Below, in pieces: positions 12,366-33,893 of a stretch of 53,976 nucleotides of DNA. The DNA lies in IMG/VR virus record IMGVR_UViG_3300030329_005429, positions 1 through 53,976 of that record; one strand, given 5' to 3'. This DNA comes from a virus (taxonomy: Duplodnaviria > Caudoviricetes). A model generated the notes under the pieces. The model was not told the origin of the DNA. It saw only the letters and a program-made list of their open reading frames with translations, and made no database searches. The position numbers and the translations under genes were made by a program. Numbering within the stretch: the stretch's first letter is position 1; every line of letters begins with the position of its first letter.

Positions 12366-12371
12366 ATTATT

Positions 12372-12445: not shown

Positions 12446-12467
12446 TATTTAAAAGATTTTATAAATT

Positions 12468-12567: not shown

Positions 12568-12575
12568 TATGATTT

Positions 12576-12693: not shown

Positions 12694-12699
12694 TATTTA

Positions 12700-12769: not shown

Positions 12770-12795
12770 ATAATTAAGTGAAAAAGGAGAAGTAA

Positions 12796-13441: not shown

Positions 13442-13456
13442 TTAGTATTTAAAAAT

Positions 13457-13525
13457 TAGAAGGGGTCAAGATAAGTTCAAATCGAAGATGGCAGTGTCTT
13501 TAATTTTGCTTTGAGACTCCTTCTA
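13457..13525 (+). ncRNA. Hairpin element G (AAGA/UGA internal loop) between the Ubl and E2 genes
   Basis: TAGAAGGGGTC-AAGA...TGA-GACTCCTTCTA, 11-bp stem with one G-U. Confidence 0.65.
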
Positions 13526-13540
13526 TTATTTGGAGAAAAT

Positions 13541-16191: not shown

Positions 16192-16203
16192 AATAGGAGA
16201 AAT

Positions 16204-17070: not shown

Positions 17071-17073
17071 AAT

Positions 17074-17691: not shown

Positions 17692-19494
17692 ATGGAAAGG
17701 TTAATAGAAGTAGCGTATGGGCATCCCTCATCAAGAGGGGTGCTTGTACCAATAACTCAATTGCAATCCTATTTAAAACAAGCAATGGATGAGAATAAAT
17801 CTTTATATAGAAGTGTTTATCTATATGATGAAAATGTCTTAGAGCATATGCAGAAAGTAGGTAGTGTTAGAAAATATATGGGCCAAAGATATATTGACAA
17901 TGTTATAGTTGATATAGATAAAAAGGATAATTCAAATAATCAAACATTAAAAAATGCTAGAAATATCTTTTATAAAATAGTCAAAGCTGGCGCTCCATAT
18001 GATGCTATACTCCCTTTATTTAGTGGCTCTGGATATCATCTTTTATTATCAGGAAAGTTGTTTAGTTTTAAAGACTCTAAAGACCTACCTTATGTAGTGA
18101 AAAGTACAATGAACTCTTTATTAGGTAAAGATGTAGACCCTTCAGTTTATACAAGGACAGCTATATATAGAGTGTCACATACAATAAATAATAAAACTGG
18201 GTTATATAAAATACCTTTAAAGCATGAAGAGTTCTTAAATTCTGATGCCGATAGAATATTAGAGTTAGCAAAGACACCAAGAATAGAATTTAAATCAAAG
18301 AAATTAACATCAAAAGGCCAACTATTAACATTCGTTACAAAGAATGAAGATATCCCAAGTCTTAAATCATTTACAAATATAAGAGAACCTAAAAATATAG
18401 TTCCTTGTGTACAAACCCTTTACAATAAAGGACCAGAAGAAGGCAATAGAAATATGACAGCTATGCGTATAGCAAGCCATTTTAAAAGAAATGGAATACC
18501 GTCAGAAGCAACAAAAGCCGCTCTTATGCATTGGAATAAAGATTCATTAGAAAATGATTTCCTGATGGAAAGAGTGGAATCTGTATATAATAATGGTTAT
18601 AGATATGGATGTAATGATTCAATTTTAAAAGATAATTGCAATACAAGATGCATACATTTTAAAAGGAGGGACTATTTGGTGGATGTTAAAAACTCAAATC
18701 AATTACAAGAAGAGCTGCATAAACGAATGACAACTGATTTTACAGGAAGAGTAATAAAGCTGAGTAAATTATTAGGACTTCCTGATAAAGAAATAACAAT
18801 ATATCCAGGTGAATTAGTCACAATATTTGGACCAACAGGATGTAATAAAACAACCTTTGCCCAAAATCTTATATTAGGATATGATATGTTAAATGATAAA
18901 ATAATAGACGATAAAGTTCCAACTTTATTTTTATCTCTTGAATTATCAGATTGGTATATGCATAGAAGAAACCTGCAAATAGTAGCAAATAGAACAAAGC
19001 AACAAATAGATAGTAATTATGAGAAAATCTATAATGATAATAAGGATAAACTTGAACATGTAATGATTCAAACTGTATCTCCTACAATAGAACAAATTAA
19101 GGAGAAAATACGGGAATTAAATCCACTTTGTGTTGTTATTGATTATATAGACTTATTAGGCACTCCTGTCGGATATAAGGGCGAATATGAACAAATTAGA
19201 TACATATCGCATTCATTAAGTAATATGGCAGTGAACCTTGATATAATAATCATACAAATATCACAAGTATCAAGAGATTATTCAAGAAATGAAGTTTTAG
19301 ACCTTTATGCAGGAAAAGGCTCTGGAGCTATAGAAAATGCCTCAAGAAAAGTTATAGGCATTAATGGTAAGGCAAATTCAAATCAGAAAACAGTAGAAAT
19401 GTTTAAAAATAGTGATGGGGATTTGTTTAATGATGTTAAACTAGAATGGCTTCCGTCATTCAGATTAAGGAGGGTTAGTGAAAGTAACGATTGA
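17692..19494 (+). CDS. AEP primase/polymerase - PriCT - DnaB-like helicase fusion
   Basis: AEP motifs VDID, SGSGYH, RVSHTIN; PriCT EGNRN; helicase GPTGCNKT, LSLE, VIDYIDL, ISQVSR, GSGAIE. Confidence 0.88.
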   Translation: MERLIEVAYGHPSSRGVLVPITQLQSYLKQAMDENKSLYRSVYLYDENVLEHMQKVGSVRKYMGQRYIDNVIVDIDKKDNSNNQTLKNARNIFYKIVKAGAPYDAILPLFSGSGYHLLLSGKLFSFKDSKDLPYVVKSTMNSLLGKDVDPSVYTRTAIYRVSHTINNKTGLYKIPLKHEEFLNSDADRILELAKTPRIEFKSKKLTSKGQLLTFVTKNEDIPSLKSFTNIREPKNIVPCVQTLYNKGPEEGNRNMTAMRIASHFKRNGIPSEATKAALMHWNKDSLENDFLMERVESVYNNGYRYGCNDSILKDNCNTRCIHFKRRDYLVDVKNSNQLQEELHKRMTTDFTGRVIKLSKLLGLPDKEITIYPGELVTIFGPTGCNKTTFAQNLILGYDMLNDKIIDDKVPTLFLSLELSDWYMHRRNLQIVANRTKQQIDSNYEKIYNDNKDKLEHVMIQTVSPTIEQIKEKIRELNPLCVVIDYIDLLGTPVGYKGEYEQIRYISHSLSNMAVNLDIIIIQISQVSRDYSRNEVLDLYAGKGSGAIENASRKVIGINGKANSNQKTVEMFKNSDGDLFNDVKLEWLPSFRLRRVSESND

Positions 19495-19714
19495 TTTGCC
19501 AGATGAAGACTACCTATTATTGAAAACAAGAGCAGCAAAAGAAATGCGTTCAATAAGAGCTCAGGTAGCTTATGATATAAGAGAAGCTGTAAATAAAGAT
19601 ATTTCAGATAGGAAAGAATGGCGAAAAATGAATAATGAAGCAGCTAAATTTGCTAAAAAGACTCTTTTGGATACAATGACACAAGAATCTGTCGGTCCTA
19701 TGGAGAAATTATGA
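19478..19714 (+). CDS. Ribbon-helix-helix (Arc-like) DNA-binding protein
   Basis: VTIDLPDEDYLLLKTRAAKEMRSIRAQV matches the RHH pattern. Confidence 0.7.
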   Translation: MKVTIDLPDEDYLLLKTRAAKEMRSIRAQVAYDIREAVNKDISDRKEWRKMNNEAAKFAKKTLLDTMTQESVGPMEKL

Positions 19715-20244
19715 GCACAACAAAGGAACTAGTAGGCGAATACATCGATATAGAAATAAGAAAGGAGTACGCAGAAAGTCTTCAAGAAAGAAACGAATGC
19801 GATAATGCTCTCCAGGTAATACAAACAAAGCTAAAGAAGAAGGTTAAAGGTATAGACCATATAGTTATGGAAATGGATAAGAAATTAGCACTTGTAGTTG
19901 CTGAAGAAGATATTATATCCAAAGAAATAGCCAGATTAAAGAGAAGAAAAAATGCTATAAAAAGAAGTAAAGGATATTTCAATGAGGTTCTTTTACCAAT
20001 AGTAATAAAAGAAGTAGGTCAAAATGGAGTATTCGAAACTGAAACAGCAAAATATAAGTTATATGAAACATATGGAAAAGTAGATGTTAATGAAATAGAA
20101 TGTCCTAAAGACTATCTAAAAATCAGGATGGTTGAAGATATAGATAGAAAGAAAGCCAGAGCTGATGCCATAACAGCTCATAAAGAAGGCAAAGAGATAC
20201 CTGGTGTTAAAATAGCACTAGTAGAAAGAGTTAGAAGAACTTGA
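19711..20244 (+). CDS. Siphovirus Gp157-like protein
   Basis: Coiled coil EIARLKRRK, then CPKDY...IDRKK...GKEIPGV. Confidence 0.75.
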   Translation: MSTTKELVGEYIDIEIRKEYAESLQERNECDNALQVIQTKLKKKVKGIDHIVMEMDKKLALVVAEEDIISKEIARLKRRKNAIKRSKGYFNEVLLPIVIKEVGQNGVFETETAKYKLYETYGKVDVNEIECPKDYLKIRMVEDIDRKKARADAITAHKEGKEIPGVKIALVERVRRT

Positions 20245-20435
20245 TAAAAACATATAATAAAGATGGATGTAGTTATATATGTTTATTCAATTCATTAATA
20301 ATAGGATGTGCAAGGCAAGTAGATATTAATATTGGTAAAACAATACTTATTAATGTCTCATTATGGCAATTAGGCTTTAGCATATCATTTCATAAGTACG
20401 AAGAAAACGGAGGTAAAGTGTATGGCGAATCGTAG
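20241..20435 (+). CDS. Hypothetical protein
   Basis: TTGA-coupled ORF, 64 aa. Confidence 0.55.
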   Translation: MIKTYNKDGCSYICLFNSLIIGCARQVDINIGKTILINVSLWQLGFSISFHKYEENGGKVYGES

Positions 20436-20637
20436 AAAATCTCAGCTAAAAAAGATACTAAATCATTTGCAAAAAGTAGGATATATAAATCCACTTCAAG
20501 CATTGAATAAGTATGGATGCTTTAGATTATCTGCTGTAATATACTCATTAAGAGAAGCAGGGCATAATATTATTACCAAAAATATGAAAAATAAGCATGG
20601 TAATAATTATGCAAGATATGAGTATGATGCAAGTTAA
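20422..20637 (+). CDS. Winged helix-turn-helix protein
   Basis: ILNHL...INPLQALNKYGCFRLSAVIYSLREAGHNI is a typical phage HTH. Confidence 0.85.
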   Translation: MANRRKSQLKKILNHLQKVGYINPLQALNKYGCFRLSAVIYSLREAGHNIITKNMKNKHGNNYARYEYDAS

Positions 20638-20669
20638 CCTTGCTTTGAATGCGTATTAAATCGTAAAAT

Positions 20670-20746
20670 ATAAATGGAGAGACTGCTAGTTTATTTACTA
20701 TTGTTCATTAATAATACCTTTATATAGAGCAGTCTCTTCTATTTAT
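20670..20746 (+). promoter_or_regulatory. 18-bp hairpin occluding the HNH start codon
   Basis: ATAAATGGAGAGACTGCT pairs with AGCAGTCTCTTCTATTTAT (one bulge, one G-U); the 3' arm includes the AT of ATG 20745. Confidence 0.6.
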
Positions 20747-21203
20747 GAGACAAAAAAGAATACTACATTGGGAAAAGAAATTTCAAAGAAAATTAAAAAG
20801 ATTTCATAAAAACTTTTGGAAAAGAGCTTTTGGAAAAATCATCAAAAAAAGCTCTAACCTTAGAACATCATTAAAGAGGAGAAGTCGTGAGTATAATACG
20901 CTTTTTAAAATCAGCCTTGAGGAAATCCGTGAAATTATATATAAATACTACGGTAAAGGCTGTAATTATTGTGGGTGCACTCTTACCGTGGCTAATATTG
21001 TTTGCGACCATATACAGCCTATATCTAATGGCGGAGACAGCACTCCAAGTAATCTTCAAATAATATGTAGAAGATGTAATATCAGGAAAGGTAATTTATC
21101 CCATAAAGACTTTAAAAGAGTATTGAAGTGGATAAATAAACAACCAGAAGATGTAAAAAAGTATATTTTAAGAAAACTATCGAAAGGAGATAACTTCAGA
21201 TAA
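20745..21203 (+). CDS. HNH endonuclease
   Basis: CNYCG, DHIQPISNGG, NLQIICRRCNIRKG. Confidence 0.92.
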   Translation: MRQKRILHWEKKFQRKLKRFHKNFWKRAFGKIIKKSSNLRTSLKRRSREYNTLFKISLEEIREIIYKYYGKGCNYCGCTLTVANIVCDHIQPISNGGDSTPSNLQIICRRCNIRKGNLSHKDFKRVLKWINKQPEDVKKYILRKLSKGDNFR

Positions 21204-22215: not shown

Positions 22216-22370
22216 AATTTACTCCAAATAATTTTTATAATAAATAAGAAAATAACAGCTCCTAATACAGAAAAAACATCAACAATATGATTTCCACTAT
22301 CACTAGATATTGTTCCTACAGGAGTTTCTATAGTAAATTCCCTATCTTCTGTAAATTCTTTATTTACCAT
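22212..22370 (-). CDS. Small membrane-anchored protein (52 aa, not in ORF track)
   Basis: TAATG and ATGA coupling on both sides; IETPVGTISSDSGNHIVDVFSVLGAVIFLFII. Confidence 0.7.
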   Translation of the reverse strand: MVNKEFTEDREFTIETPVGTISSDSGNHIVDVFSVLGAVIFLFIIKIIWSKL

Positions 22371-25300
22371 TATTCTTCCTCTCTTTGCTCTTTTACAAAT
22401 TTATGCATTTTAATATATGGGAAGCCAGTCATTCTTTCTACAGTTTGTATAGGATTTTCAGCAGCTATTTTAACATCTCTTGCAAACCTACCAAAAGGCA
22501 ACATTGTCATTGCATAGTAATCTCCCATCCTACTCCAATCGTCATCTAATAAGGCTTTAAATGTAGGAGGCAATAATCTTAAAGCTGGAGGTGTTACCAT
22601 CTGTAAAGGAGCTATTGCTTTAGGGTATGCTCCAAAGAAAGCCCTGTCCCTCTCTTTTTCATCTCCAAATATCCAATCAGAAAAATCTTGAAACCAATTT
22701 AAAGGAGCAGGAAGAGTATTCTCAAAGATACTATATGTAAATACATTAGCCAAAGCAAACAACATCATATCTGTAGACATTACTCTTTTAAATCTTTCAA
22801 ATTCCATTGTTCCTTTTTGATACCCTCTTTCAGCCGCTTCTTTATATACCATATTCCTAAAAGCAACCGAGTTCCAGGCCCATAATTGAAACCTAGAAAC
22901 TATTTTACCTAAAGAAGTAGCAGCAAAAGCAGGCCTATTGGCTGCATTGTATAAAAATTGAGTATCTTTTACACCTCTTTTTGCCCACCATATTAAAAAT
23001 GGATGTTCAGCTGAATCTACAGCCCCTTTAAACATATCTTTAGCTTGTATATAATGAGCTAAGAAAGAGTCTCTTCTTAATCTTCTTTCTGAAACTCTCA
23101 TAAAGTAAGCTGCTTTATTAAATAATGAATCAGACAACCCAGAACGCTTCCAAACCTCTTTTAAAGTTTTGTCTTTAACAGATGGGTCTTTCTTTATCTT
23201 TTTAACTAACATTTCAAGGCCTTCTTTTACCTTTTTATCTTTAGCGTAATCAGATAATCCAATTTCTTTCCTTAAAAACTCTTCAATAATACCTAAACTT
23301 TCAACCCATTTATAAGTATCCTCTAAAGATTTCCATTTTGTATTTATATTATCGCTTAACCATTTTATATCTCTTGTTTTATTCCAATGTCTTAATCCAA
23401 CAGATTGAACTGTCATTGTAGTACCACCAAATATATTAGCAATAGCAGTTTTAGGATGAGCTAATAATGTTGCCAATTGATATTTAGCTTCTAAATTAGA
23501 CCAATGTTTTAACTTGTCATAAGTCATAATATCTTGTAACTCAGGAGGTAAATCTTTATTACCTAATCCCATTTTCTTTGCTATTTTGTTTATTCTATTT
23601 TTAACAGTAGAATCAGCAAACCAATAGTAAGGTGTTCCCTTTAATGCCATTTTAGGATTATTTACCATATAATCAGGAAGAATATCAGGAAAACCCATTG
23701 ACCTATTAACAAAAAGCTTATAATGATTAGTCCAGGCATCTATATTATCCCAAGCACTCTTATCTGTTATTTTTCCATTTTTATCTGTATATTTCATTTT
23801 ACCTGATTTTTCAAAATTATCAACTATCATCCTTGATAATATCTGAGATGCATTTTTATAATAAGCATCCATAACATTATTCGCATATTTCTCAATAGCA
23901 GCAGGACTCCTATCATAACCAGGTATATGCAATTCTCTTGCCATTTGATGTCCTGATTTCACTACAGATTTATCATAATCAATAATATCAGCAGTTTTAT
24001 CTTTTATTTTTTGAACTATATCATCATATATTCCCCATTGCTTCCAAGTTTCAAGACTAAAATCATCTGTAATATTTCTCATCTTAAGAGATAAAGCAGC
24101 AGCTTTAGAGATTAAACCTTCTTTAGTTGTTTTAGTATAATTCTTATTAGCCAAATCATCCATAGCAGATTGAAGTGCTTTCTCAATATGCTTTCCTTCA
24201 AAATTTACATGAGGAAAGAAATCTTTTCTATATTTAGTTCCCATTTCCTCTAATCTTCTTCTTAATGCAGATTGTAATTTAGGATTCCTAGTCATCTTTA
24301 ATTGTAAGTGAGTTCCAATCCTGTTCATACCATCAACACCAATATCTAATACTTTATCTATTGCTATATTCTCTTTTATAGCGTCCATCATATCTTTAGT
24401 GAATAATTCTAATCTAGCTTGTTCAATACCATTTTCATCTCTATATATATATTTAGATAAAGTTTTAGGATTACCTCTTAACCATTTATTGTAAATATTA
24501 TCAGTAGTTTTTGAATAAAGTTTGTTAATTTCATCCATAATCTGCTGACCAGTCATTTCTTTTGTTTTACTACCAAACCTTACATTGAATACTTTCTTAT
24601 CTACTGCAGCTATCCTTTTTAAAATCTTATCCTGTAACTTTCCATCTTTAACTCCATAAGTCCTTGCTTTTGCATTCATAGATAAATCAGAAGCTTTAAA
24701 AGCATCTAATTTCAATCCAACAGGAAGTTCTCTTTGATATGCTGCTAATTCAGCTAATTCCTGACCTTCTGTTATTGCATTTAAAAATTGGAGTTTATCT
24801 CTAAAAATATCTTCTTGCCTTCTTTTTTCATGCATAGCAAAATCACCTAAATTAGTGATAGCATAGTTTAATTGTCCCATAGCATGAGCAGGTTCATATA
24901 TAATACCTGTTTCAGCCTTTCTATCTAATGGATTCCAAAACATTCCAATTCTTTCTACTAGCTTAAAATCCTTTCTTAACCAGGCTTTATCAGAAGTCAT
25001 TGGAAATGTATTATAAAAATATTTACTTAAAATAGGGTCACCTTTAGTCCATTTTACAAATTGCTTTCCAAGCCAACCTAAATGCTGTCCTGAACGCCTT
25101 GAACCTAATAAATGATTAAAAGCTCTCATATCCTCAATAGTCATTGCATCAGGAGATTTTAAGAATAAATTCTTCATATAACCTTCAACTTTAAGCCCAA
25201 TACTCGGCCCGTAAAAATCTAAATGGTCTAATATTTCATTATATAATCTTTGATTCTCGCTAGATAACGGGACTCTTTTTTGATTTTTATTCTCAGCAAC

Positions 25301-28300
25301 TCTTCTAAATGCTGGTATCTTATCTAAAGCTCTAAGAGTTTCTAATTTAGCCTCTCTCCCCTCACCTAAATCTGCCTTTACACTTGTATCTTCAACTTTA
25401 ACATCAACAGGCTCACTCATTCTTCTTGATATTTCTAATAAATCTTTCTTTAATGATTCTGATATAGGGTCTGTAGTCTCATTAAAAAGTTTTTTATAAT
25501 TATCCCAATATTCACTTACCATTCTATCTGATATAGACTTACTTGAAAAGCCCAATCTATTTACACCAGTAGCATTTATATTCTTTCCTGATGTTTCCAT
25601 AGCAATTTCTTCAATAAAGCTTTTATCTTTTTTATTTCTCAGTCCATAAAATGTCTTTAATTCGTTTGCATATGGTATTCTGAATCCACTTAATAATAAT
25701 GCATCAAAAGCATCCTGTTCTAAATCTGTTAAACTTTCTTTGTATTTACTAATAGCAGCATCTGTTTCTGCTTGATTAACTGACCTTGTTCTTTTAGGGA
25801 GTGGTGTTTCAGACTCTATAGTATATTCAATCTTTGCTTTATCTAAGGCTTCTTTTTGTGCTTGATTTATATTTGAAACCTCTCCTTTTTTATCCTTTAT
25901 AACATATTCATAAGAACCTTCACTTTCTCTATTTAGTAAATAACTATCTTTACTAATAGCATCTGCTTCTAATGCGAGTTCTTGAAGTTTTTCCTTTGGT
26001 AATTGTCTCCAATACTCTATCCCTGTTTTATAGCCTGTCATAACAGATAAATCATTACTAAAAAAATCTTCACCCTGTTTTAATTTATCACCCTCTAATC
26101 TTCCTTGTAAAAACCTAGCTATATTTTTATTAAAAGGAACTACAAATCCTCCCCTATAAAATGCATTAGCTATCTTTTTATTTTCAGGTCTTCTAACCTC
26201 TTCATTGTAATCAGTATAAAGTTGTTGAACAGAATCTAAATTTACCCTTTTTTGATAACCATCTTGCCAATCGACATCTTTCAAAGTATCTGCTTGTTTT
26301 GATATAAAAGATATTCTAGAATCAGCAGGAATATTGTTTATAAAACCAGCTTTTTCTTTTCTTTCATGATATCGCCATTGTCTGTTATTAGCTATGTCCT
26401 TACCATAGTATGCTGTATTTATGTTTGAATAATTTTGAACAGCTTTTCTCTTCATAAATGATGTAACTTTATCTGTTCGCATTTTACCTGTTTTATTTTT
26501 AGCAGATGTCACTTCAAAAAGAGAGTCAAACATTCTAGAGTAATATAACTCAGGATTTACTATACCTATTTCATCTAATGGGTCAGAAGGAAAAGCAATA
26601 GATGCTCTTAATTTTTCTAATGCTTTTTTCAAAGCAGTTTTTTCAGTCTTTAATTTTACAGTAAATGTCGTCTTATTCTTATCTCCAACATCTATATCAA
26701 AAGTCTTACTCTCAGAATCAGCTAATTCATTTATTTTGTCGGTATATAAAGCTATTAAATTTTGCTTCGCAACCACAGCAGGCCCCAATCTATTACGACC
26801 ATCTGCAGCTATATCAGATATAGTTTTTCTATGATTCATAGAATACATAAGAGAAGGGCTTCTTCTTAGATTTATATTTGAACCTGTAGTTACAGTAAAG
26901 TCTTTTCTGTAACCTTCCTTATTATCAGATACTCCTTCATACCAATCGTCTGGATTGATTTTTTTATCCTTAGAAAGTTGACTAAACTCTTCAGGAGTCA
27001 ATACATCTTTCTTGCCTTTTTGACCATATTGAGATTTCTTATAATATCTTAAAAACTCATCTTTATTTTGATTGTATACATCTTTATATTTACTCTTAAC
27101 ATCCATAAAGAGCCACATTTTATCACCATCAGCATCAGCTCCACCAAGCTTTCTCATTATCTCCCCATGTATCAATCCTCCAAAGCCTTTTCTACCAGTG
27201 AATCCACCAAATTTTAATGCAGCAGTTCCACTAATAGAATCAATAGGAACTCTTGTAGTTAAGGCTTCAAAGAATTTAGGTATTTCTTCTTTTAAAACAG
27301 GATTGGTAGTTTTATTGTATAAATCCCAAAGTTCACCTAGATTCCTTGTTCCCCTTATAGAATCTATTTGAGATTTTAAGATTCCAGAGGCCTCTAATGT
27401 TGCTATTAAATTATCATAATTATGCTTTTTATGCCTATGTCCATCATCTAGAAAGTAAATATCTTTTTCTGTTTGAAGTCTTTTTGTTAAGGGATTATCT
27501 TGAAATTCATAATCATATACACGCATTCTAGAAGCTACTGAATTAGGCACTTTAGGTCTAGTGACCTGATGAACTATATAATTCTTTAAAATAGCCTCTC
27601 TATAAGGATTGTTCATTTTATTTAAGAATACAGAGATATGGTCTCCAGCTAATGATAAATTTCTATCACTAACTGAAGTATACTCATTCATTTCTTTCAT
27701 TACATCAGTATATTCTCTTTCACTTTTTTCACCTTCCTCAATAGCCATAGATTCAGCATCTTTATTGATTCTTAGCATTTTTCTATATACTTCTACTTGA
27801 AAATCTCCAAATCCAGGCTCTGTTAATGCTTCTGCTAATTCTGAAGCCCCTATTTTTTCTATATTATCAATTAAAGGTTTCATTAATTTAGGGTCTTTAC
27901 TAGCAAGGTATTCTGAAAGCATTTTATTATACCTATCTTCTCCCTTAAAAGACTTCAAATTATAATCTGTGAAAAATTCATTTATAATTTCAGGTGTAAC
28001 GCCTGGAGAAATAGTCGATAAAGTAGAACCTATTTGCTTTGGCAATCTTTGGTCTTTATTCCCTGATTTTGAAGATACAACCTCTGATAATATAACTCTC
28101 AAATCTTTTGAATTAACTTGGAACATATAATCTCTCATAAGTTGTTCTTGTGAGACATCAAAACGCTTTCCTTTGGCATCATAATCCCAAAATTCAAATT
28201 TACCATCTTTCATTTTACCAAAAACACCTTTTCTACTTCCATATTGCTTAGCTGATGTGGTAGGTAGCATTTGATGCAACCCTAAAGATTCCATAGCTTT

Positions 28301-31300
28301 AGATTGTCTAGGGCCCGCATCAAAATGCATATGCTTCCCTAGCAATGCTCCTGGACCATCTTCTGGTGCAGATATAATAAAGTTCTTGTTTTGACCACTT
28401 TCATTATCTGAAAAATGCAATCCTGCTTCTTTATTTATAGCTATCAAAACATCATCTCTAATAGGACTCCCCCCATCAAAATGCTCTATATTATCTGTAT
28501 TTTTCTTAATTTCCCAAGGCTTCTTTCTCAATCCAAAACCTTTAGGAATATCATCATTAGTTTTTAAGATGATAGTATTTAAGTTTCCATCAACAATATC
28601 AGGAATGTGTTTTAAATATTCAGGGTCAACAGAATGCCCATTAGTAAACCATACTTGCAATCTTTTATTTAATGATATAGGGTCATTTATAAAGCCTTCT
28701 CCAGCTATTTTCTTATAATTAGCAATATTAGGTTTTAATCCATTCATAGATAGATTATAAAATACATTAGAAACCATACCACGATTATATAGCTCATTAG
28801 CTTTTAAACTTCCACCTAAAAACTTGCTATATTTCATTCTAAAATCACGCATATCAGTATCTATATGATTTTTATCTAATTTCATAGATTTTATAATAAG
28901 GTCTTTATTATTATTTATTTCTTGATTAGTTAAAACCTCAGCTCTAGGATGCCATTTATTGTAAATCATAACCTCACTATCAGCTTTACCTCCAAAGTAA
29001 TACATTCCCTTGCCAAGCATTTCTTGATGCATATTACCAATTAATTCATTATAAGCTTTTTCAGCAGTTTCTCTGGCTTTTTTCTCTCCTATTTGAAATT
29101 TTAAATCATTATATATATTTTCTCTAAATTGTAATAATCCAACTTCTTTATTTACACCATTTCCACCTTTTTGAACTACTCCATCTACTCTAATAATAGG
29201 TCTTTGAGATGCATCAGTTATATCTACAGTGTTATTCATCTCTTTTCTATAAACTTCTTCAACATAGAAATTTACCATAGGAATACTTTTTCTATCTCCA
29301 GCCATATTCTGAGGACTTTCAGGGTCTAAATGGCTAATTTTAATATCTTTTATATCTTTAAAGGTAAAACTATCATTCTTTCCTTTTGTATAATTAAAGG
29401 TAACATATGGAGATGCTACAATCATATTCCTTTCGCCAATTCTTCTCTTTAGATAATTCCTGAAAAAGTTTCTTTCTGGGGCATTTTCATTAGACATATC
29501 AAATTTTTCACCATATCTATTTTTCATCCAATCAGAAAGTTCATTTATATCATCATTAAAGTTTTCAGCTTTTTCTAACAATTTTTGATGCAAGTCCTCT
29601 ATACTGACTTTTTTACGAGCAGCGTCTATACTACCATCTTTACGAATCCAAGAAAAGGAAAGATTATCTTCTGCCCAACTTTTAATACGAGGCATAGCAT
29701 CTATTTGAATCTGAACTCCAGTATCTTCTCTTTCAGCTATTGTCTCTAAAGCTTTTTCGACTTCTTCTCTAGCTTCCCCTAATTTAGGTTTATGAAGCTT
29801 TGCTATTTCATCTTGTAGAAATTTATAAGTTCTTGGCGCTCTTTGCGATAATTGAGACCTCTGAGTATTACCAAAGCCCTCAGTTGGAATTACAACAGGC
29901 TTATCTTTTGGTATTTTTTCTATAGCTTTTTGAATAACTCTTTTATTTAAAACAAAATCATCATCAGTAAAGAATGATTCATATCTTTCTCCTGGCAATC
30001 TTTTAGTAGGTATTCCGAAGGCATTTGGCTCATTTCTTACAGAAGCATTTCCTGATGAACCTCTCTTTAAAAAGTCATCTGCAAATATAAATACTTTATC
30101 CTTATTTTTCTGAACATACTCAGGAGTCATTTTGTCTATTGTGTAAAAATCTGGAGTTTTCTTAGAAAAAACTTTTGCCTCAGTTCTTTCTTCTAATATC
30201 TTAGAAACTTCTTCTTTTGATACAAAGCCTTTGTCTATAGCCTCTTTTAAGTAAGGATAGTCTTCTCCAAATCGCTTTATCATCTCTGTAACTTGAGTTT
30301 TTTGTATACTAGCTCTTGAATATTGTTCTACAACTTTTTTAGTTTCAGGAGACCAATCTTTTTGGAGCAAATCTTTTTCTAATTTTATAAGCATCTTATC
30401 AGCAGTTACCTCTTTTTGTAAATCCTGATATCTATATTTCATTGCAGTTCTTCTTGCAGAAGGAGATTCTTTAAATCCAAAATAAGCACCTAATAAGTAT
30501 TCATATATTTGCTCAGGAGCTGTAGCTCCTCTCATAGTAGAAGGAAGTCCTTGGAATAAAGCTCCAGCAATAGAGCCTAAGGCATTCTCTCCTAAAGCAT
30601 TTTCGCCTGGGATAGCAGATTTAAGAAGATTACCAATTCCCCTAAAAGCTCCCCCTGCTACTCCACCATGTATGAATGAATCAACCATAACATCCACACC
30701 TTTTGTCCAAGAAGAAACAGCGGATGCTGTACCTAAATGAAAAGCTCCTTCAGCCATATCTCTTGCAGTATCGTTATATAATAATTTAGATACAGTAGAA
30801 ACTGCTTCGCTTCTCTTTCCAATAGCAGTTGTAATAGCCTTAGCAGCATGTTTAGAAACAGGCTCTGTAACAGCTTTAGCAGCCATCATAGGTACTGACT
30901 TACCCTTTAAGTAAGAAAGTGCCCTTAAGACCCCTATACTGCTCTTAGCCGCTGCTCCTGGTATATAACCTACAAAACCACCAAGATGTCCTAAGCTACG
31001 AGCTATACCTTCCCATTGATTTTTAGGTTGCTCTCCTACTTCTAATGTAGTGAATCCTTCAATAAAACCAGAACCCGCTTGTTTTATCGATTCTAACATT
31101 TTAAATTCTTCATCGGAAGGGTCTCTATTGAACCACATACCATAATGATTTGCATGCTCTTCTATTTGAGAGACTAAATTTTCATTAAAATTCGAAGGTT
31201 TAGAATAATAATTCTTTATTAATCGCTTTGTTAAATCACGATTATATTGAGGTTTAAATTTGTATTCCTCTAGGTTATCCCCAGGTTGAATGTTTTCTGC

Positions 31301-31303
31301 CAT
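22370..31303 (-). CDS. Giant virion/ejection protein with double-psi beta-barrel RNA polymerase motifs (putative virion RNAP)
   Basis: GGADADGDK (D1390/D1392/D1394); RVP at R1351, 39 aa upstream; FDGG (D943), K990 and SAK (K1019) as candidate first-barrel residues; end of ejection-protein cluster. Confidence 0.8.
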   Translation of the reverse strand: MAENIQPGDNLEEYKFKPQYNRDLTKRLIKNYYSKPSNFNENLVSQIEEHANHYGMWFNRDPSDEEFKMLESIKQAGSGFIEGFTTLEVGEQPKNQWEGIARSLGHLGGFVGYIPGAAAKSSIGVLRALSYLKGKSVPMMAAKAVTEPVSKHAAKAITTAIGKRSEAVSTVSKLLYNDTARDMAEGAFHLGTASAVSSWTKGVDVMVDSFIHGGVAGGAFRGIGNLLKSAIPGENALGENALGSIAGALFQGLPSTMRGATAPEQIYEYLLGAYFGFKESPSARRTAMKYRYQDLQKEVTADKMLIKLEKDLLQKDWSPETKKVVEQYSRASIQKTQVTEMIKRFGEDYPYLKEAIDKGFVSKEEVSKILEERTEAKVFSKKTPDFYTIDKMTPEYVQKNKDKVFIFADDFLKRGSSGNASVRNEPNAFGIPTKRLPGERYESFFTDDDFVLNKRVIQKAIEKIPKDKPVVIPTEGFGNTQRSQLSQRAPRTYKFLQDEIAKLHKPKLGEAREEVEKALETIAEREDTGVQIQIDAMPRIKSWAEDNLSFSWIRKDGSIDAARKKVSIEDLHQKLLEKAENFNDDINELSDWMKNRYGEKFDMSNENAPERNFFRNYLKRRIGERNMIVASPYVTFNYTKGKNDSFTFKDIKDIKISHLDPESPQNMAGDRKSIPMVNFYVEEVYRKEMNNTVDITDASQRPIIRVDGVVQKGGNGVNKEVGLLQFRENIYNDLKFQIGEKKARETAEKAYNELIGNMHQEMLGKGMYYFGGKADSEVMIYNKWHPRAEVLTNQEINNNKDLIIKSMKLDKNHIDTDMRDFRMKYSKFLGGSLKANELYNRGMVSNVFYNLSMNGLKPNIANYKKIAGEGFINDPISLNKRLQVWFTNGHSVDPEYLKHIPDIVDGNLNTIILKTNDDIPKGFGLRKKPWEIKKNTDNIEHFDGGSPIRDDVLIAINKEAGLHFSDNESGQNKNFIISAPEDGPGALLGKHMHFDAGPRQSKAMESLGLHQMLPTTSAKQYGSRKGVFGKMKDGKFEFWDYDAKGKRFDVSQEQLMRDYMFQVNSKDLRVILSEVVSSKSGNKDQRLPKQIGSTLSTISPGVTPEIINEFFTDYNLKSFKGEDRYNKMLSEYLASKDPKLMKPLIDNIEKIGASELAEALTEPGFGDFQVEVYRKMLRINKDAESMAIEEGEKSEREYTDVMKEMNEYTSVSDRNLSLAGDHISVFLNKMNNPYREAILKNYIVHQVTRPKVPNSVASRMRVYDYEFQDNPLTKRLQTEKDIYFLDDGHRHKKHNYDNLIATLEASGILKSQIDSIRGTRNLGELWDLYNKTTNPVLKEEIPKFFEALTTRVPIDSISGTAALKFGGFTGRKGFGGLIHGEIMRKLGGADADGDKMWLFMDVKSKYKDVYNQNKDEFLRYYKKSQYGQKGKKDVLTPEEFSQLSKDKKINPDDWYEGVSDNKEGYRKDFTVTTGSNINLRRSPSLMYSMNHRKTISDIAADGRNRLGPAVVAKQNLIALYTDKINELADSESKTFDIDVGDKNKTTFTVKLKTEKTALKKALEKLRASIAFPSDPLDEIGIVNPELYYSRMFDSLFEVTSAKNKTGKMRTDKVTSFMKRKAVQNYSNINTAYYGKDIANNRQWRYHERKEKAGFINNIPADSRISFISKQADTLKDVDWQDGYQKRVNLDSVQQLYTDYNEEVRRPENKKIANAFYRGGFVVPFNKNIARFLQGRLEGDKLKQGEDFFSNDLSVMTGYKTGIEYWRQLPKEKLQELALEADAISKDSYLLNRESEGSYEYVIKDKKGEVSNINQAQKEALDKAKIEYTIESETPLPKRTRSVNQAETDAAISKYKESLTDLEQDAFDALLLSGFRIPYANELKTFYGLRNKKDKSFIEEIAMETSGKNINATGVNRLGFSSKSISDRMVSEYWDNYKKLFNETTDPISESLKKDLLEISRRMSEPVDVKVEDTSVKADLGEGREAKLETLRALDKIPAFRRVAENKNQKRVPLSSENQRLYNEILDHLDFYGPSIGLKVEGYMKNLFLKSPDAMTIEDMRAFNHLLGSRRSGQHLGWLGKQFVKWTKGDPILSKYFYNTFPMTSDKAWLRKDFKLVERIGMFWNPLDRKAETGIIYEPAHAMGQLNYAITNLGDFAMHEKRRQEDIFRDKLQFLNAITEGQELAELAAYQRELPVGLKLDAFKASDLSMNAKARTYGVKDGKLQDKILKRIAAVDKKVFNVRFGSKTKEMTGQQIMDEINKLYSKTTDNIYNKWLRGNPKTLSKYIYRDENGIEQARLELFTKDMMDAIKENIAIDKVLDIGVDGMNRIGTHLQLKMTRNPKLQSALRRRLEEMGTKYRKDFFPHVNFEGKHIEKALQSAMDDLANKNYTKTTKEGLISKAAALSLKMRNITDDFSLETWKQWGIYDDIVQKIKDKTADIIDYDKSVVKSGHQMARELHIPGYDRSPAAIEKYANNVMDAYYKNASQILSRMIVDNFEKSGKMKYTDKNGKITDKSAWDNIDAWTNHYKLFVNRSMGFPDILPDYMVNNPKMALKGTPYYWFADSTVKNRINKIAKKMGLGNKDLPPELQDIMTYDKLKHWSNLEAKYQLATLLAHPKTAIANIFGGTTMTVQSVGLRHWNKTRDIKWLSDNINTKWKSLEDTYKWVESLGIIEEFLRKEIGLSDYAKDKKVKEGLEMLVKKIKKDPSVKDKTLKEVWKRSGLSDSLFNKAAYFMRVSERRLRRDSFLAHYIQAKDMFKGAVDSAEHPFLIWWAKRGVKDTQFLYNAANRPAFAATSLGKIVSRFQLWAWNSVAFRNMVYKEAAERGYQKGTMEFERFKRVMSTDMMLFALANVFTYSIFENTLPAPLNWFQDFSDWIFGDEKERDRAFFGAYPKAIAPLQMVTPPALRLLPPTFKALLDDDWSRMGDYYAMTMLPFGRFARDVKIAAENPIQTVERMTGFPYIKMHKFVKEQREEE

Positions 31304-31306: not shown

Positions 31307-32326
31307 TTAAAAGCCTGGTAACATTTGTTGAGAAACTCCTTGAAATAATCCACCCATACCACCACCGCCTTGGGCCATGCCACCTTGAGCATTGATAGCA
31401 GCTGTTTGAGGATTAGCAAGTCCTCCTGGGAATTGTACTCTACTAGGAATAGACGGAATAGGAGTTCCTTGTGCTAATCCCATAGGAGTTCCTTGTCCTA
31501 ATTGCAATACACTTCTAACAGGTCTAATAGTTTGAGTTTTCAAAAACTCTTCCATGCCTCTTATAAAATTCTTTTTAGGTATTTCTTTTACACCTGCTAT
31601 TCCTGAATGTTTATGGAACCAATGAGCAATTATTTTTTCATTACTAGCTTTGCTTCCATGTTGTCTTTGTTTTCTTATAAATTCATTCATAGATTTCATA
31701 GCATTAGGGTCTTTAGACATCCATCTCCAAGCTATTCCTGCCTCTTCTGGAGCTATGCCTATGCCAGGTTTCTTGCTAAATACTTTACCAGCACCTTTAA
31801 CATTAAAAGGCCATCCAAAGCTCTGTCTGAAAGCATTCCAAGCTGGAGATTTACTTGGAGCATTAAGAAGCCCACTAAAACCCTTACCAGCACCTTTTAT
31901 TCCAGCAGCACCAAAAGCAGCGCCTCCCAATCCTCTCATTAATTTCATAGGACCACCAAAAGGAACAGCCAGACCAGCTAATCCACCAATTCCTGTTGCA
32001 ACTCTTTCAGCTTGATTTAATGGAGTATATAATTCATTTGGCAATAATCCGAACATAGCAGTATCAGCAGCTGAAGCTAATCCTTTACCTACAGCTTTAG
32101 CCATATTTGTTTCAGTATCAGGCATTGGTAGTCCTGCTTCCATTGCTTGTTGTTCAAGCCACATTCTTTGGTCTCTACCATATTTACCAGGATTAATTCT
32201 ATAATCCCTTAATTTAGCTGATAATTTAGCTTTTTTCTTGGCATTAGCTTGTAATTGCATGTATAGCATTCTTTCTTGAGGGTCAGATGCCATCATTGGT
32301 ACATTTGCTATTGTTTCGTATGCCAT
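31307..32326 (-). CDS. Putative ejection (internal virion) protein
   Basis: Gly/Ala-rich amphipathic segment GLASAADTAMFGLLP...GIGGLAGLAVPFGG; upstream of the giant gene. Confidence 0.6.
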   Translation of the reverse strand: MAYETIANVPMMASDPQERMLYMQLQANAKKKAKLSAKLRDYRINPGKYGRDQRMWLEQQAMEAGLPMPDTETNMAKAVGKGLASAADTAMFGLLPNELYTPLNQAERVATGIGGLAGLAVPFGGPMKLMRGLGGAAFGAAGIKGAGKGFSGLLNAPSKSPAWNAFRQSFGWPFNVKGAGKVFSKKPGIGIAPEEAGIAWRWMSKDPNAMKSMNEFIRKQRQHGSKASNEKIIAHWFHKHSGIAGVKEIPKKNFIRGMEEFLKTQTIRPVRSVLQLGQGTPMGLAQGTPIPSIPSRVQFPGGLANPQTAAINAQGGMAQGGGGMGGLFQGVSQQMLPGF

Positions 32327-32336
32327 ATCCTACTCC

Positions 32337-33257
32337 TTATTTATATATATCATCAAATAAATCCATATCTGAAACTCCTAAATTATACTTTAAATCAGGA
32401 GCGTGGCCTAAATTCTTAGAATAAGGACCTAATTGATTTACTATTTTCATTAATCCACTATCAATCATAAATTTCCTATAATCATCGGGAGTTTCAAAGT
32501 CAACCCCTCTTAATTCATCCATAACTTTTTCAGATATTCTTTTTTGATGTGGCTCTATTTTATTTAAAAAGGCTGTTCTTCCAAACAAACCACTTTCATT
32601 AACTCTTCTTTGTGCTTCTCCAGGAGTTAATCCAAACTTTTGTTGATATCTATCAGCAATCATCTTCTGATACATATCTTCATTTAAAGGTATATTCCCA
32701 CCTTCAACTCTATATTGAGGAGTAGGAGCTTCTGTAGGAGCTTGTGATGCTAAACTATTTGCCAATGATTGCTCTACAGTAGTCTTTTTATTATACGGGT
32801 TAGCATCTGGGTCACCAGCCATAGCATAAGCATATGCAGAACTAGCTTGATTTAGCTTGTTTTGAGGCAAACTTGAAGTATTAGTAATAGGAGCATTATT
32901 AGGAGTTACAAAATTTTGATTTTGAGATACCCAATCATTATAAGCTTTTTGAGTCTCTGGTCCATAAATACCATCAGCAGATACTCCTAATTTCATTTGC
33001 AGATTGCTTAAATCTGATGGGCTAATTTTACTCAAATCTAAACCAGGTTGTATTCCAGTATATGGAGTAGGCTGTATATTCTTGGTATCTTCAATTTGAT
33101 TAAAAACAGGGTCTTCAAAGGTTATATCAGATGATATATTCCTTAACTCTTCCCCTATATCCTGCCTCATATTAGATTGAAATCTATCCTGCAATTCAGG
33201 GATTCTATTTGCAGCTTGATTTAAATAGCCGAATAATGTATCACTAGTTATAGCCAT
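32337..33257 (-). CDS. Putative ejection protein with peptidoglycan-binding-like motif
   Basis: LQMKLGVSADGIYGPETQKAY resembles the PG_binding_1 core. Confidence 0.6.
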   Translation of the reverse strand: MAITSDTLFGYLNQAANRIPELQDRFQSNMRQDIGEELRNISSDITFEDPVFNQIEDTKNIQPTPYTGIQPGLDLSKISPSDLSNLQMKLGVSADGIYGPETQKAYNDWVSQNQNFVTPNNAPITNTSSLPQNKLNQASSAYAYAMAGDPDANPYNKKTTVEQSLANSLASQAPTEAPTPQYRVEGGNIPLNEDMYQKMIADRYQQKFGLTPGEAQRRVNESGLFGRTAFLNKIEPHQKRISEKVMDELRGVDFETPDDYRKFMIDSGLMKIVNQLGPYSKNLGHAPDLKYNLGVSDMDLFDDIYK

Positions 33258-33893
33258 TTAAACTCCTTTTTTAGGTTGAGGCCTATAGCCATATTTAAAT
33301 GCATCCCACATACCCATAGGATTATCTTCTGTAAATTCACCAAATCCTTTAGCGCCTGTAAATCCTAACATTCCTGTTAGACCAGGCATTAACATATTAG
33401 CTCCCAATCCTAATACAGACTGATTCATTTGAGCTCTAGCAGCATCATTTTGAGATTTTGTATTTAAATAAGCTTCATTTGCCTGATTATATAATCCTGC
33501 AGCTCTATCTCCAGCTCCCATTGATAGTTTTTGCCCTTGCATCCACATATCCATAAGAGACTTATCTGTCTGTCCCATAGCTGAATCTAAGGCTCTTCTT
33601 CTAGAGGCTTCATTTTGAGCAAATCCAATACCTTGACTAGCTCCTGTCTGAGCAATACCTCTATTATTCATATTCATTGAAGTAGCTAAGTTATCTTGAG
33701 CTTGACGATTATATATATCAGAAAAGAAACTTCGACCCTGTTTATAATAATCAGAGTTAAAATCAGCATAATCCTCGGCTTGCTCATTCCATTTATCAAG
33801 GTACGGATTGCTTAATATTTTATTTTGTGCTGCAGAAGGGCTTTGAGTCGCTAAAAGATTCTTATTTGCCCATCTAGAAATGAAATTTCCCAT
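33258..33893 (-). CDS. Putative ejection/pilot protein
   Basis: Gln/Ala/Asn/Met-rich helical protein with Gly-rich hydrophobic tail. Confidence 0.6.
   Translation of the reverse strand: MGNFISRWANKNLLATQSPSAAQNKILSNPYLDKWNEQAEDYADFNSDYYKQGRSFFSDIYNRQAQDNLATSMNMNNRGIAQTGASQGIGFAQNEASRRRALDSAMGQTDKSLMDMWMQGQKLSMGAGDRAAGLYNQANEAYLNTKSQNDAARAQMNQSVLGLGANMLMPGLTGMLGFTGAKGFGEFTEDNPMGMWDAFKYGYRPQPKKGV

What the first reader, a model, noticed from the sequence alone, without database searches (positions are those of the whole stretch)
22370..31303. 2977-aa virion protein is a probable single-chain double-barrel RNA polymerase with a DADGD active site
Seen: LGGADADGDK at 27122-27148, RVP 39 aa upstream, and FDGG/K/SAK motifs about 370-450 aa earlier; the gene ends a cluster of ejection-type genes. 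Established: DxDGD plus upstream RxP are the beta-prime-type catalytic motifs of two-barrel RNAPs (cellular NADFDGD, QDE-1-like RdRPs, YonO), and crAss-like phage phi14:2 injects such an enzyme (DFDID). Inference: a ~54-kb phage without crAss-type replication genes injects its own RNAP to transcribe the early arm, including the RNA array and Ubl cassette. This may be a distinct lineage.
Basis: partly seen in the sequence, partly recalled or inferred. Interest (0 to 1): 0.85.

Follow-up and report, generated by a model that had tools for sequence, protein, structure and literature searches.

The report
Giant phage protein with crAss-type RNA polymerase
A 2977-residue protein of a 54-kb uncultured marine phage very probably contains a single-chain RNA polymerase built like the one that crAss-like phages inject into their hosts, and it marks a large, undescribed group of such enzymes.

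Summary
ORF 22370-31303 lies on the minus strand and encodes 2977 aa, with LGGADADGDK at aa 1386-1395, RVP 39 aa upstream, and FDGG/SAK 448/373 aa upstream.

A DxDxD alone is expected about once by chance in a protein this size. Here, though, the three Asp, R1351/P1353 and K973/K990/K1019 are invariant in 30 of 30 aligned full-length proteins. All 80 IMG/VR loci examined keep DxDxD.

An AlphaFold model of aa 801-1800 has pLDDT 86.4 and pTM 0.84. Its best and only significant PDB match is the virion RNA polymerase gp66 of crAss-like phage phi14:2 (6VR4, E 1.7e-7). All 50 listed matches are RNA polymerase entries.

Sequence similarity to gp66 is marginal and confined to the catalytic barrel. The capsid and portal proteins are unrelated to phi14:2 by BLASTP, and the genome is half crAss size with no DNA polymerase found.

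I read it as a new, deeply diverged lineage of crAss-type single-chain two-barrel RNA polymerases, with 457 clusters at 50% identity. Packaging into the virion and early-gene transcription are inferred from gene position and analogy. They are not shown.

The parts
22370..31303 (-). Giant ORF, 2977 aa (P0001), including the stop codon at 22370-22372. The ATG at 31301-31303 lies 3 nt after the stop of the upstream ORF.
30404..31156 (-). Conserved N-terminal region, aa ~50-300. It is Gly/Ala-rich and of unknown fold.
   Evidence: Column conservation 0.50-0.59 across 30 proteins. No Pfam or PHROG hit. The Atlas gave only leads, with P22 gp16-type at 0.88, below the 0.9 line.
29810..30130 (-). DUF7831 domain, aa 392-498, sitting in a variable, poorly occupied slot of the family.
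   Evidence: Pfam PF25176, E 2.3e-26. Alignment occupancy there is 0.45-0.73. Stand-alone copies occur in 63 phage records, mostly phages of Alphaproteobacteria.
28094..28591 (-). Upstream beta-rich barrel, aa ~905-1070. It is a candidate beta-type double-psi barrel with invariant D943, G944, K973, K990, K1019 and G1022 (30/30) and Q1020 and R1024 in 29-30 of 30.
   Evidence: conservation; strands at model residues 107-250
27560..27994 (-). All-helical connector of ~145 aa between the two barrels, aa ~1104-1248.
   Evidence: DSSP of the model, helices 304-448. gp66 and QDE-1 have a ~140-residue connector between their barrels (paper text).
26924..27265 (-). Catalytic beta-prime-type barrel, aa ~1347-1460. 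Six predicted strands lie around the metal-binding loop.
27245..27253 (-). RVP, aa 1351-1353. R and P are invariant, and the motif lies 39 aa before the first catalytic Asp.
   Evidence: gp66 has the same 39-aa spacing, R1322 to D1361.
27122..27145 (-). GGADADGD, aa 1387-1394, the predicted Mg-binding loop with D1390, D1392 and D1394.
26726..26839 (-). 38-residue helix, aa 1489-1526, carrying R1492, G1502, R1503 and V1510 (29-30 of 30). It is a candidate bridge helix.
   Evidence: DSSP helix 689-726 and conservation. The assignment is by analogy with gp66's bridge helix at 1529-1559 and is not superposed.
22373..24106 (-). The most conserved C-terminal region, aa ~2400-2977. It is helical and of unknown function.
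   Evidence: Conservation 0.44-0.75. The model of aa 1801-2977 has pLDDT 69.3 and 0 PDB fold matches at E <= 0.001.

Best explanation
The centre of this 2977-aa protein (aa ~900-1530) is a single-chain 'two-barrel' DNA-dependent RNA polymerase.

Anatomy:
- An upstream beta-type barrel supplies invariant Lys/Arg residues.
- A ~145-residue helical connector follows.
- A beta-prime-type barrel then carries RVPxDSxSG...GGADADGD. D1390, D1392 and D1394 would hold the catalytic Mg2+.
- A long helix downstream is the likely bridge helix.

Its nearest relative is the virion RNA polymerase gp66 of crAss-like phage phi14:2.

Inferred mechanism, by analogy with gp66:
- The protein is made late and packed into the capsid as an internal protein.
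- It passes into the host cell with the DNA. The conserved N- and C-terminal regions would serve packaging and ejection.
- It then starts rifampicin-insensitive transcription of the rightward early arm (9.3-21.2 kb), which holds replication genes and the JAB/ThiF cassette. The host polymerase expresses the structural arm.

What is shown: the motifs, their conservation, the fold match and the gene position. What is inferred: catalytic activity, packaging, injection and which genes it transcribes.
For: (1) Conservation.
- D1390/D1392/D1394, R1351/P1353 and K973/K990/K1019 are identical in 30 of 30 full-length proteins.
- DxDxD is kept in 31 of 31 homologues and in 80 of 80 IMG/VR loci.
- The block aa 1351-1400 is the most conserved 50-aa bin of the whole protein, at 0.76.

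(2) Fold.
- The model of aa 801-1800 has pLDDT 86.4 and pTM 0.84.
- Against the PDB, rank 1 and the only hit at E <= 0.001 of 541 is 6vr4_A, phi14:2 virion RNAP (E 1.7e-7, probability 1.00, 1186 columns).
- Rank 2 is the AR9 non-virion RNAP, and all 50 listed rows are RNA polymerase entries.
- Against BFVD there are 19 hits at E <= 0.001. The named ones are crAss-like giant proteins.

(3) Motif-level match to gp66.
- The R-to-first-Asp spacing is the same, 39 aa, and both continue with 'DKM[WY]' after the loop.
- BLASTP of the two barrel regions aligns RVP with RIP and DADGD with DFDID: 19/61 identical, E 0.006 for that single comparison.
- hhalign of the family profile (51 sequences) against a crAss profile (8 sequences) aligns the same 59 columns, E 1.8e-4.

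(4) Architecture. The ~145-aa helical connector between the barrels matches the ~140-residue connector described for gp66 and QDE-1.

(5) Genome position.
- The order here is TerL, portal, scaffold, capsid, tail genes, giant gene, then a strand switch into the early arm.
- phi14:2 has the same order: g094 TerL ... g091 capsid ... g067-g066-g065, then the switch. g066 is annotated there as found in virions by MS.

(6) No other polymerase. 31 of 45 ORFs were scanned with Pfam, including every ORF of 300 aa or more except the capsid (464 aa) and portal (691 aa) ORFs, which PHROGs identified. None gave an RNA or DNA polymerase domain.

(7) Accessory domains. Homologues carry extra enzyme domains typical of injected 'polyvalent' proteins: ART-PolyVal, cpYpsA SLOG and 2OG-Fe(II) oxygenase.
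Against: - Fold scores are modest in global terms. TM-score to 6VR4 is 0.33 normalised by the query, rmsd is 25 A, and beta-prime chains score about 0.13. I could not inspect coordinates, so the barrel topology and the residue equivalences are inferred from DSSP and Foldseek ranks.
- At the sequence level the link is marginal. There were no Pfam or PHROG polymerase hits and no PDB sequence hit with the protein or with the family profile. hhalign against gp66 alone gave probability 0.3%, and profile against profile gave only 48%.
- Nothing here shows that the protein is in the virion. The upstream 'ejection' ORFs have no family hits.
- There is no hydrophobic 19-aa segment above 1.3 on the Kyte-Doolittle scale.
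- The C-terminal 1177 aa match nothing.
- No conserved early promoter was found. Sigma-70-like sites number 85 against 73.7 +/- 9.7 in shuffles.
Confidence: 0.72

Rival explanations
1. It is a genuine two-barrel RNA polymerase but is not packaged. It would be made inside the infected cell and transcribe middle or late genes, like the non-virion polymerases of AR9, PhiKZ or P23-45.
For: Packaging was not tested. The second-best PDB match is a non-virion enzyme, AR9 7s00_d, at E 1.2e-3. No transmembrane-like segment was found.
Against: The gene sits at the far end of the structural, late-type arm on the same strand as the capsid, portal and tail genes. An enzyme needed before late genes would be oddly placed there. 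The protein is about 2000 aa larger than a polymerase core needs. It has strongly conserved N- and C-terminal regions and polyvalent-type inserts in homologues, as in packaged crAss enzymes. The closest structure is a virion enzyme.
Confidence: 0.12
2. The two-barrel core serves replication rather than transcription. It could act as a primase or a DNA/RNA-templated polymerase, as proposed for RdRP-like enzymes of selfish elements and as in archaeal PolD.
For: No DNA polymerase was found in the genome. A published proposal holds that RdRP-like enzymes of phages and selfish elements may act as primases (passages of PMC3417536).
Against: The phage has its own primase-helicase, with PriCT_1 plus DnaB_C at 17692-19494. 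No PolD entry is among the 50 listed PDB fold matches, which are all RNA polymerases. The gene lies in the structural arm, not the replication arm.
Confidence: 0.06
3. It is mainly a structural or ejection protein, and its barrel region is a catalytically dead relic.
For: About two thirds of the protein is not polymerase-like. In phi14:2 the crystal form is self-inhibited, so activity cannot be read from structure alone.
Against: A dead site would not keep all three Asp, the RxP and the upstream Lys residues invariant across proteins only 26-57% identical overall, nor across 80 of 80 loci. The catalytic block is the best conserved of the protein.
Confidence: 0.03

Closest known systems
gp66, virion-packaged DNA-dependent RNA polymerase of crAss-like Cellulophaga phage phi14:2 (PDB 6VR4; Drobysheva et al., preprint 10.1101/2020.03.07.982082, parts 1-2 of 6 read)
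   Same: - It is the best structural match.
- Both are single chains with a beta-type barrel, a ~140-aa connector, then a beta-prime-type barrel.
- The catalytic loop sits at almost the same position, aa 1390 against 1361.
- The RxP-to-Asp spacing is identical at 39 aa, and both continue with 'DKM' after the loop.
- The gene lies at the distal end of the structural arm, next to the divergent early arm.
- Both are giant proteins with large regions of unknown fold.
   Different: - The loop is DxDGD with Gly, as in cellular enzymes. It is not DFDID. The paper states that all crAss enzymes have Ile or Val there.
- No BLAST or HMM similarity exists outside 59-61 residues.
- The host genome is 54 kb rather than ~100 kb. 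It has no DNA polymerase and no detectable capsid or portal similarity.
- There are no separate gp65/gp67-like giant neighbours.
- About half the genes have Shine-Dalgarno sites.
gp96 tail-tape-measure-fused virion RNA polymerase of Thermus phage P23-45 (PMC10770324, passages read)
   Same: It is a two-barrel RNA polymerase with DFDGD, fused to a very large virion protein and delivered to transcribe pre-early genes.
   Different: It is fused to a siphovirus tape measure protein, and its core is small at about 800 aa. It is a weak fold match here: the only P23-45 entry among the listed BFVD matches, an uncharacterized protein (A7XX94), scores E 0.07.
N4-type virion RNA polymerase (Schitoviridae)
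   Same: It is a giant (~3500 aa) virion protein with a central polymerase, injected to transcribe early genes (abstracts of PMC13434306 and PMC11445570 in the listing).
   Different: That its polymerase is a T7-like right-hand single-subunit enzyme, not a two-barrel enzyme, is recalled rather than tested here. No such Pfam domain was found in the window protein, and all fold matches are two-barrel enzymes.
QDE-1 / eukaryotic RNAi RNA polymerases
   Same: They are single-chain two-barrel enzymes with a connector domain. That their loop is of the GG-D-x-D-G-D type is recalled, not tested.
   Different: There is no Pfam RdRP hit at E <= 1 and no PDB sequence hit with the family profile at E <= 10. 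QDE-1 is not among the 50 PDB fold matches listed.

Membership tests
Two-barrel (double-psi beta-barrel) RNA polymerase superfamily | DxDxD metal-binding loop in the beta-prime-type barrel, conserved among homologues | tested here: met
   DADGD at aa 1390-1394. The three Asp are kept in 30/30 aligned proteins, 31/31 homologues and 80/80 loci.
Two-barrel (double-psi beta-barrel) RNA polymerase superfamily | RxP motif about 35-40 residues before the first Asp | tested here: met
   R1351 and P1353 are invariant and lie 39 aa upstream. gp66 has the same spacing.
Two-barrel (double-psi beta-barrel) RNA polymerase superfamily | Fold similarity to solved two-barrel polymerases | tested here: met
   Foldseek against the PDB: 6vr4_A at E 1.7e-7. 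All 50 listed matches are RNA polymerase entries. The model has pLDDT 86.4.
Two-barrel (double-psi beta-barrel) RNA polymerase superfamily | Second (beta-type) barrel contributing conserved basic residues to the active site | tested here: inconclusive
   There is a beta-rich domain at aa ~905-1070 with invariant K973, K990 and K1019 and near-invariant R1024. The psi-loop topology and the equivalence to the catalytic Lys of beta could not be checked, because no coordinates were available.
Two-barrel (double-psi beta-barrel) RNA polymerase superfamily | Bridge helix and trigger loop after the catalytic barrel | tested here: inconclusive
   There is a 38-residue conserved helix at aa 1489-1526. 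A trigger loop was not identified.
Two-barrel (double-psi beta-barrel) RNA polymerase superfamily | Mg-dependent, template-directed RNA synthesis | not testable with these tools
   This needs a biochemical assay.
crAss-like (Crassvirales) virion RNA polymerase, gp66 family | DFDxD loop with Ile or Val at position 4 (stated for all crAss-like phages) | tested here: not met
   The window has Gly. Among 80 loci, 77 have Gly, 1 has Ala and 2 have Ile.
crAss-like (Crassvirales) virion RNA polymerase, gp66 family | Recognisable sequence homology to gp66 orthologues | tested here: inconclusive
   tblastn of the window protein finds no crAss record: 63 records matched, and the 30 listed match only aa ~380-525. 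gp66 itself finds 141 crAss-type records. hhalign profile against profile gives probability 48% and E 1.8e-4 over 59 columns. BLASTP of the barrels gives E 0.006.
crAss-like (Crassvirales) virion RNA polymerase, gp66 family | Encoded by a Crassvirales genome (~90-105 kb, crAss-type capsid, portal and terminase, own DNA polymerase) | tested here: not met
   The genome unit is ~53.9 kb. BLASTP of the capsid and portal proteins against phi14:2 gives no similarity. The nearest cultured phages are non-crAss at 22-27% identity. No DNA polymerase domain was found.
crAss-like (Crassvirales) virion RNA polymerase, gp66 family | Presence in the virion and delivery into the host | not testable with these tools
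   Only gene position is available, at the end of the structural arm as in phi14:2.
Eukaryotic-type RdRP (QDE-1/RDR, Pfam RdRP) | Match to the RdRP family model or to QDE-1 | tested here: not met
   There is no Pfam hit other than DUF7831 at E <= 1, no PDB sequence hit with the family profile, and no QDE-1 among the 50 listed fold matches.
T7/N4-type single-subunit RNA polymerase | Right-hand polymerase domain | tested here: not met
   There is no such Pfam domain, and the fold matches are all two-barrel enzymes.
Polyvalent proteins of phages (large injected multi-domain proteins) | Giant size plus variable enzymatic or LPD domains | tested here: inconclusive
   Homologues carry ART-PolyVal (26.6 bits, below the 31.2-bit cut-off), cpYpsA and 2OG-FeII_Oxy_2. 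The window protein carries only DUF7831. LPD-type clusters appear only as Atlas leads at 0.87-0.94.

The most novel reading that the evidence does not exclude
This family may be a lineage of phage two-barrel RNA polymerases separate from the crAss enzymes. It keeps the ancestral Gly-containing GGADxDGD loop and belongs to phages of hosts that use Shine-Dalgarno sites, possibly marine Alphaproteobacteria.

If so, it would be a better candidate than crAss phages of Bacteroidota for the phage source of the eukaryotic RNAi polymerases. Drobysheva et al. proposed that source to be a phage of the proto-mitochondrial lineage.

Hints for the host:
- 23 of 45 ORFs have strong SD sites.
- Stand-alone relatives of the DUF7831 domain occur mostly in phages of Alphaproteobacteria.
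- Two of the four capsid hits are from Roseobacter and Caulobacter phages.

Against:
- Two of three distant copies in genome bins are labelled Bacteroidota or Rhodothermales.
- QDE-1 is not among the listed fold matches.
Probability: 0.08. Interest if true: 0.85.

Novelty: new variant of a known kind. Interest (0 to 1): 0.66.

Why it matters
Injected single-chain two-barrel RNA polymerases have been shown experimentally only in crAss-like phages and, fused to a tape measure protein, in Thermus phage P23-45.

This result would extend the strategy to a large, uncultured group. The family profile finds 457 clusters at 50% identity. 221 IMG/VR stretches encode a relative. The contigs are mostly 45-56 kb, about half the size of crAss genomes, and no DNA polymerase was found in the one genome examined here.

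It has three practical uses:
- It gives a function to the signature gene of that group.
- It provides a set of very divergent sequences for asking which residues of a two-barrel polymerase are truly indispensable.
- It offers a Gly-containing counterpart to the unusual DFDID loop of crAss enzymes.

It also bears on how this polymerase class spread among phages and into eukaryotes.

Four full-text searches found no paper describing this family. Supplementary files could not be read, so a mention in a supplement cannot be excluded.

Tried and rejected
- Plus-strand reading of the coordinates gives stops throughout.
- Sequence routes to a known polymerase all came back empty: Pfam and PHROGs on the whole protein, PDB sequence search with the protein and with a 51-sequence profile, tblastn against 50,697 phage records, and hhalign against gp66 alone.
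- C-terminal 1177 aa: the model is only moderate (pLDDT 69.3), and it has no fold match at E <= 0.001 among 100 at E <= 10. Its function is left open.
- ESM Atlas on aa 1-330 and aa 2400-2977 returned only unnamed viral clusters and sub-threshold leads: LPD domains, and P22 gp16 at 0.88. These were not used as evidence.
- Search for an early promoter or repeated signal:
  - Sigma-70-like sites are not above shuffles, 85 against 73.7 +/- 9.7.
  - Short direct and inverted repeats exist in 9.0-13.5 kb, but none forms a convincing family.
  - Rfam gave 0 matches.
- Conservation of the neighbouring ORFs across the 80 loci by tblastn gave 0 to 3 hits each. Synteny of the 'ejection' genes could therefore not be used.
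- A crude count of strand switches downstream of the giant gene was too noisy: 28 switch, 10 same, 42 undecided or too short.
- Hydropathy scan found no membrane-type segment.
- Host assignment: three distant copies sit in metagenome bins labelled Rhodothermales, Bacteroidota and Saccharibacteria. That conflicts with the SD usage and the alphaproteobacterial-phage hints, so the host is left open.
- A Pfam scan of a whole alignment was too large. It was replaced by the precomputed Pfam column and a scan of three homologues.

Full report
**1. The observation.**

The coordinates are right, but the gene is on the minus strand. The plus-strand frame is full of stops. The reverse complement of 22370-31303 is an open frame of 2977 aa, P0001.

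- LGGADADGDK is aa 1386-1395 (window 27119-27148).
- RVP is aa 1351-1353, 39 aa before D1390.
- FDGG is aa 942 and SAK is aa 1017.

With this protein's composition, a DxDxD string is expected about once and a DxDGD 0.064 times in 2977 aa. The motif alone proves little.

**2. Conservation.**

A word-indexed search with aa 850-1750 found 31 proteins of 2053-3643 aa. They lie on metagenome contigs whose longest members are 45-56 kb. None has a polymerase Pfam domain on record.

- All 31 keep DxDxD at one site: 29 DxDGD, one DLDAD and one DLDID.
- I aligned 30 full-length proteins, leaving out the truncated P0002 and P0003. In that alignment the following are identical in all 30: D1390, D1392, D1394, R1351, P1353, D1355, S1358, G1359, G1387-A1389 and, upstream, D943, G944, K973, K990, K1019 and G1022. 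The 50-aa bin 1351-1400 is the most conserved of the protein.
- A pattern scan of IMG/VR found 221 stretches that encode a relative. In the 80 kept, the giant ORF always has DxDxD, with 77 Gly, 1 Ala and 2 Ile at position 4.
- A 51-sequence profile of the core (A3) finds 457 clusters at 50% identity among 1.84 billion representatives, 401 of them at E <= 1e-10. Most of the 150 listed are 2800-4600 aa long.

**3. Fold.**

AlphaFold2 on aa 801-1800 with 29 homologues gave pLDDT 86.4 and pTM 0.84.

- DSSP shows a beta-rich domain at aa ~905-1070.
- A helical stretch of ~145 aa follows, at aa ~1104-1248.
- Next comes a second beta-rich domain, in which six strands surround the GGADADGD loop (aa ~1347-1460).
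- A 38-residue helix lies at aa 1489-1526.

Foldseek against the PDB gave one hit at E <= 0.001 out of 541. [quoted passage not shown] The AR9 non-virion polymerase follows at 1.2e-3. All 50 listed rows are RNA polymerase entries, mostly beta-prime chains.

Against BFVD, 19 hits reach E <= 0.001. Two unnamed proteins score very high (E 5.8e-49 and 2.6e-34, 22% identity). The named hits are giant proteins of crAss-like phages.

I could not see coordinates. The double-psi topology and the residue equivalences therefore rest on these ranks and on DSSP.

**4. Relation to gp66.**

The phi14:2 paper shows that gp66 is a Mg-dependent, rifampicin-resistant RNA polymerase. It is delivered with the DNA and transcribes early genes. 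Each Asp of DFDID is essential. The enzyme has two barrels joined by a ~140-residue connector, a bridge helix at 1529-1559 and a trigger loop. All crAss enzymes have Ile or Val at position 4 of the loop (preprint 10.1101/2020.03.07.982082, parts 1-2 of 6 read).

In gp66 the RIP motif lies 39 aa before D1361, the same spacing as here, and both loops are followed by DKM.

- BLASTP of the two barrel regions aligns the motifs: 19/61 identical, E 0.006 for that one comparison.
- hhalign of A3 against an 8-sequence crAss profile (A4) aligns the same 59 columns, at probability 48% and E 1.8e-4.

Beyond that there is no detectable sequence relation. I conclude that the core is homologous to crAss-type polymerases but very far diverged from them.

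**5. The genome.**

The window is the whole assembly. Its first and last 100 bases are 99% identical, and the repeat lies inside an ORF. The unit is therefore ~53.9 kb, and the repeat is probably an artefact of a circular or permuted assembly.

- Leftward arm: small ORFs, then TerL (5483-6973), portal (3382-5457), a scaffold-like ORF and the capsid protein (974-2368).
- Across the junction the leftward arm continues with tail and fibre-like ORFs, three small Gly-rich ORFs (31307-33893), the giant gene and a 110-aa ORF.
- Rightward arm, 9286-21203: JAB, ThiF, AAA_24, a primase-DnaB helicase, Gp157-like and HNH.

phi14:2 has the same overall order, with g067-g066-g065 at the end of the structural arm.

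By sequence the phage is not a crassvirus.

- The capsid and portal proteins show nothing against phi14:2.
- The nearest cultured phages are at 22-27% identity and are not crAss-like.
- No DNA or other RNA polymerase domain was found in 31 of 45 ORFs scanned with Pfam.
- 23 of 45 ORFs have a strong Shine-Dalgarno-type site, against a 4.4% background.

**6. The rest of the protein.**

- The N-terminal 50-300 aa and the C-terminal ~580 aa are strongly conserved but match nothing.
- The window protein carries DUF7831 in a variable slot.
- Homologues carry a 2OG-Fe(II) oxygenase there. Just after the catalytic loop they carry a cpYpsA SLOG domain or an ART-PolyVal domain, the latter below Pfam's cut-off.
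- This fits a delivered multi-domain protein, but it is not proof.

**7. Mechanism and confidence.**

- A two-barrel RNA polymerase core: about 0.9.
- Virion packaging, injection and early transcription: about 0.65-0.7, resting on gene position and analogy.
- Combined: 0.72.

The rivals are a non-packaged polymerase, a replication role and a dead relic. They are weighed in their own sections.

**8. Novelty.**

Four literature searches listed the crAss, P23-45, N4, AR9 and QDE-1 work, but nothing on this family. Passages of PMC10770324 and PMC3417536 were read. All other papers were seen only in search listings.

I rate the finding a new variant of a known kind.

Noticed in passing
window 1-100 and 53877-53976: The first and last 100 bases are the same sequence, 99 of 100 identical, and lie inside a minus-strand ORF. 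The record is therefore a closed ~53,876-bp genome, and the overlap is probably an assembly artefact rather than a true terminal repeat.
   Followed up: partly
window 14721-16191 (+): Adjacent Prok-JAB (E 4.2e-7) and ThiF/E1-like (E 3.3e-15) genes lie in the early arm. A 424-aa ORF with no family hit precedes them at 13511-14785. This looks like a ubiquitin-like conjugation cassette.
   Followed up: no
window 9100-9245 and 9582-9660 (+): The gap between the divergent arms holds a GC-richer segment with 24-nt inverted arms (9157-9180 / 9202-9225, 79% complementary). Downstream of the first early ORF there is a 12-pair hairpin with a T-run (9596-9623) and a repeated 25-mer (9582-9606, 9635-9659). 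These could be transcription signals or small RNAs. Rfam finds nothing.
   Followed up: partly
window 7821-8690 (-): A 289-aa ORF just upstream of the packaging genes contains an HEFGH string, an HExxH zincin-like motif, but has no Pfam hit. phi14:2 has a zincin-like protease in gp65, next to its polymerase.
   Followed up: no
window 48379-49167 (-): A metallophosphoesterase (phrog_221, E 3.5e-20) lies inside the structural arm. phi14:2 also has a calcineurin-like phosphoesterase (g075) within its structural arm.
   Followed up: no
P0024 aa 1445-1533; P0029 aa 1331-1486; P0007 aa 550-689: Homologues of the giant protein carry extra enzyme domains. cpYpsA SLOG and ART-PolyVal are inserted about 80-115 aa after the catalytic loop. 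A 2OG-Fe(II) oxygenase sits in the N-terminal variable slot.
   Followed up: partly
window, 45 ORF starts: 23 of 45 ORFs have AGGAG/GGAGG/AAGGA/GGAGA within 3-18 nt of the start, against 4.4% at random positions. From memory, Bacteroidota and their phages use such sites little, so the host may lie outside that phylum. Three distant relatives, however, sit in bins labelled Rhodothermales, Bacteroidota and Saccharibacteria.
   Followed up: partly
L075 and L078 (giant ORF aa ~1196): Two of the 80 related loci have GGADLDID, with the Ile at position 4 that is typical of crAss enzymes. L030 has GADFDGD, the cellular-type string.
   Followed up: no
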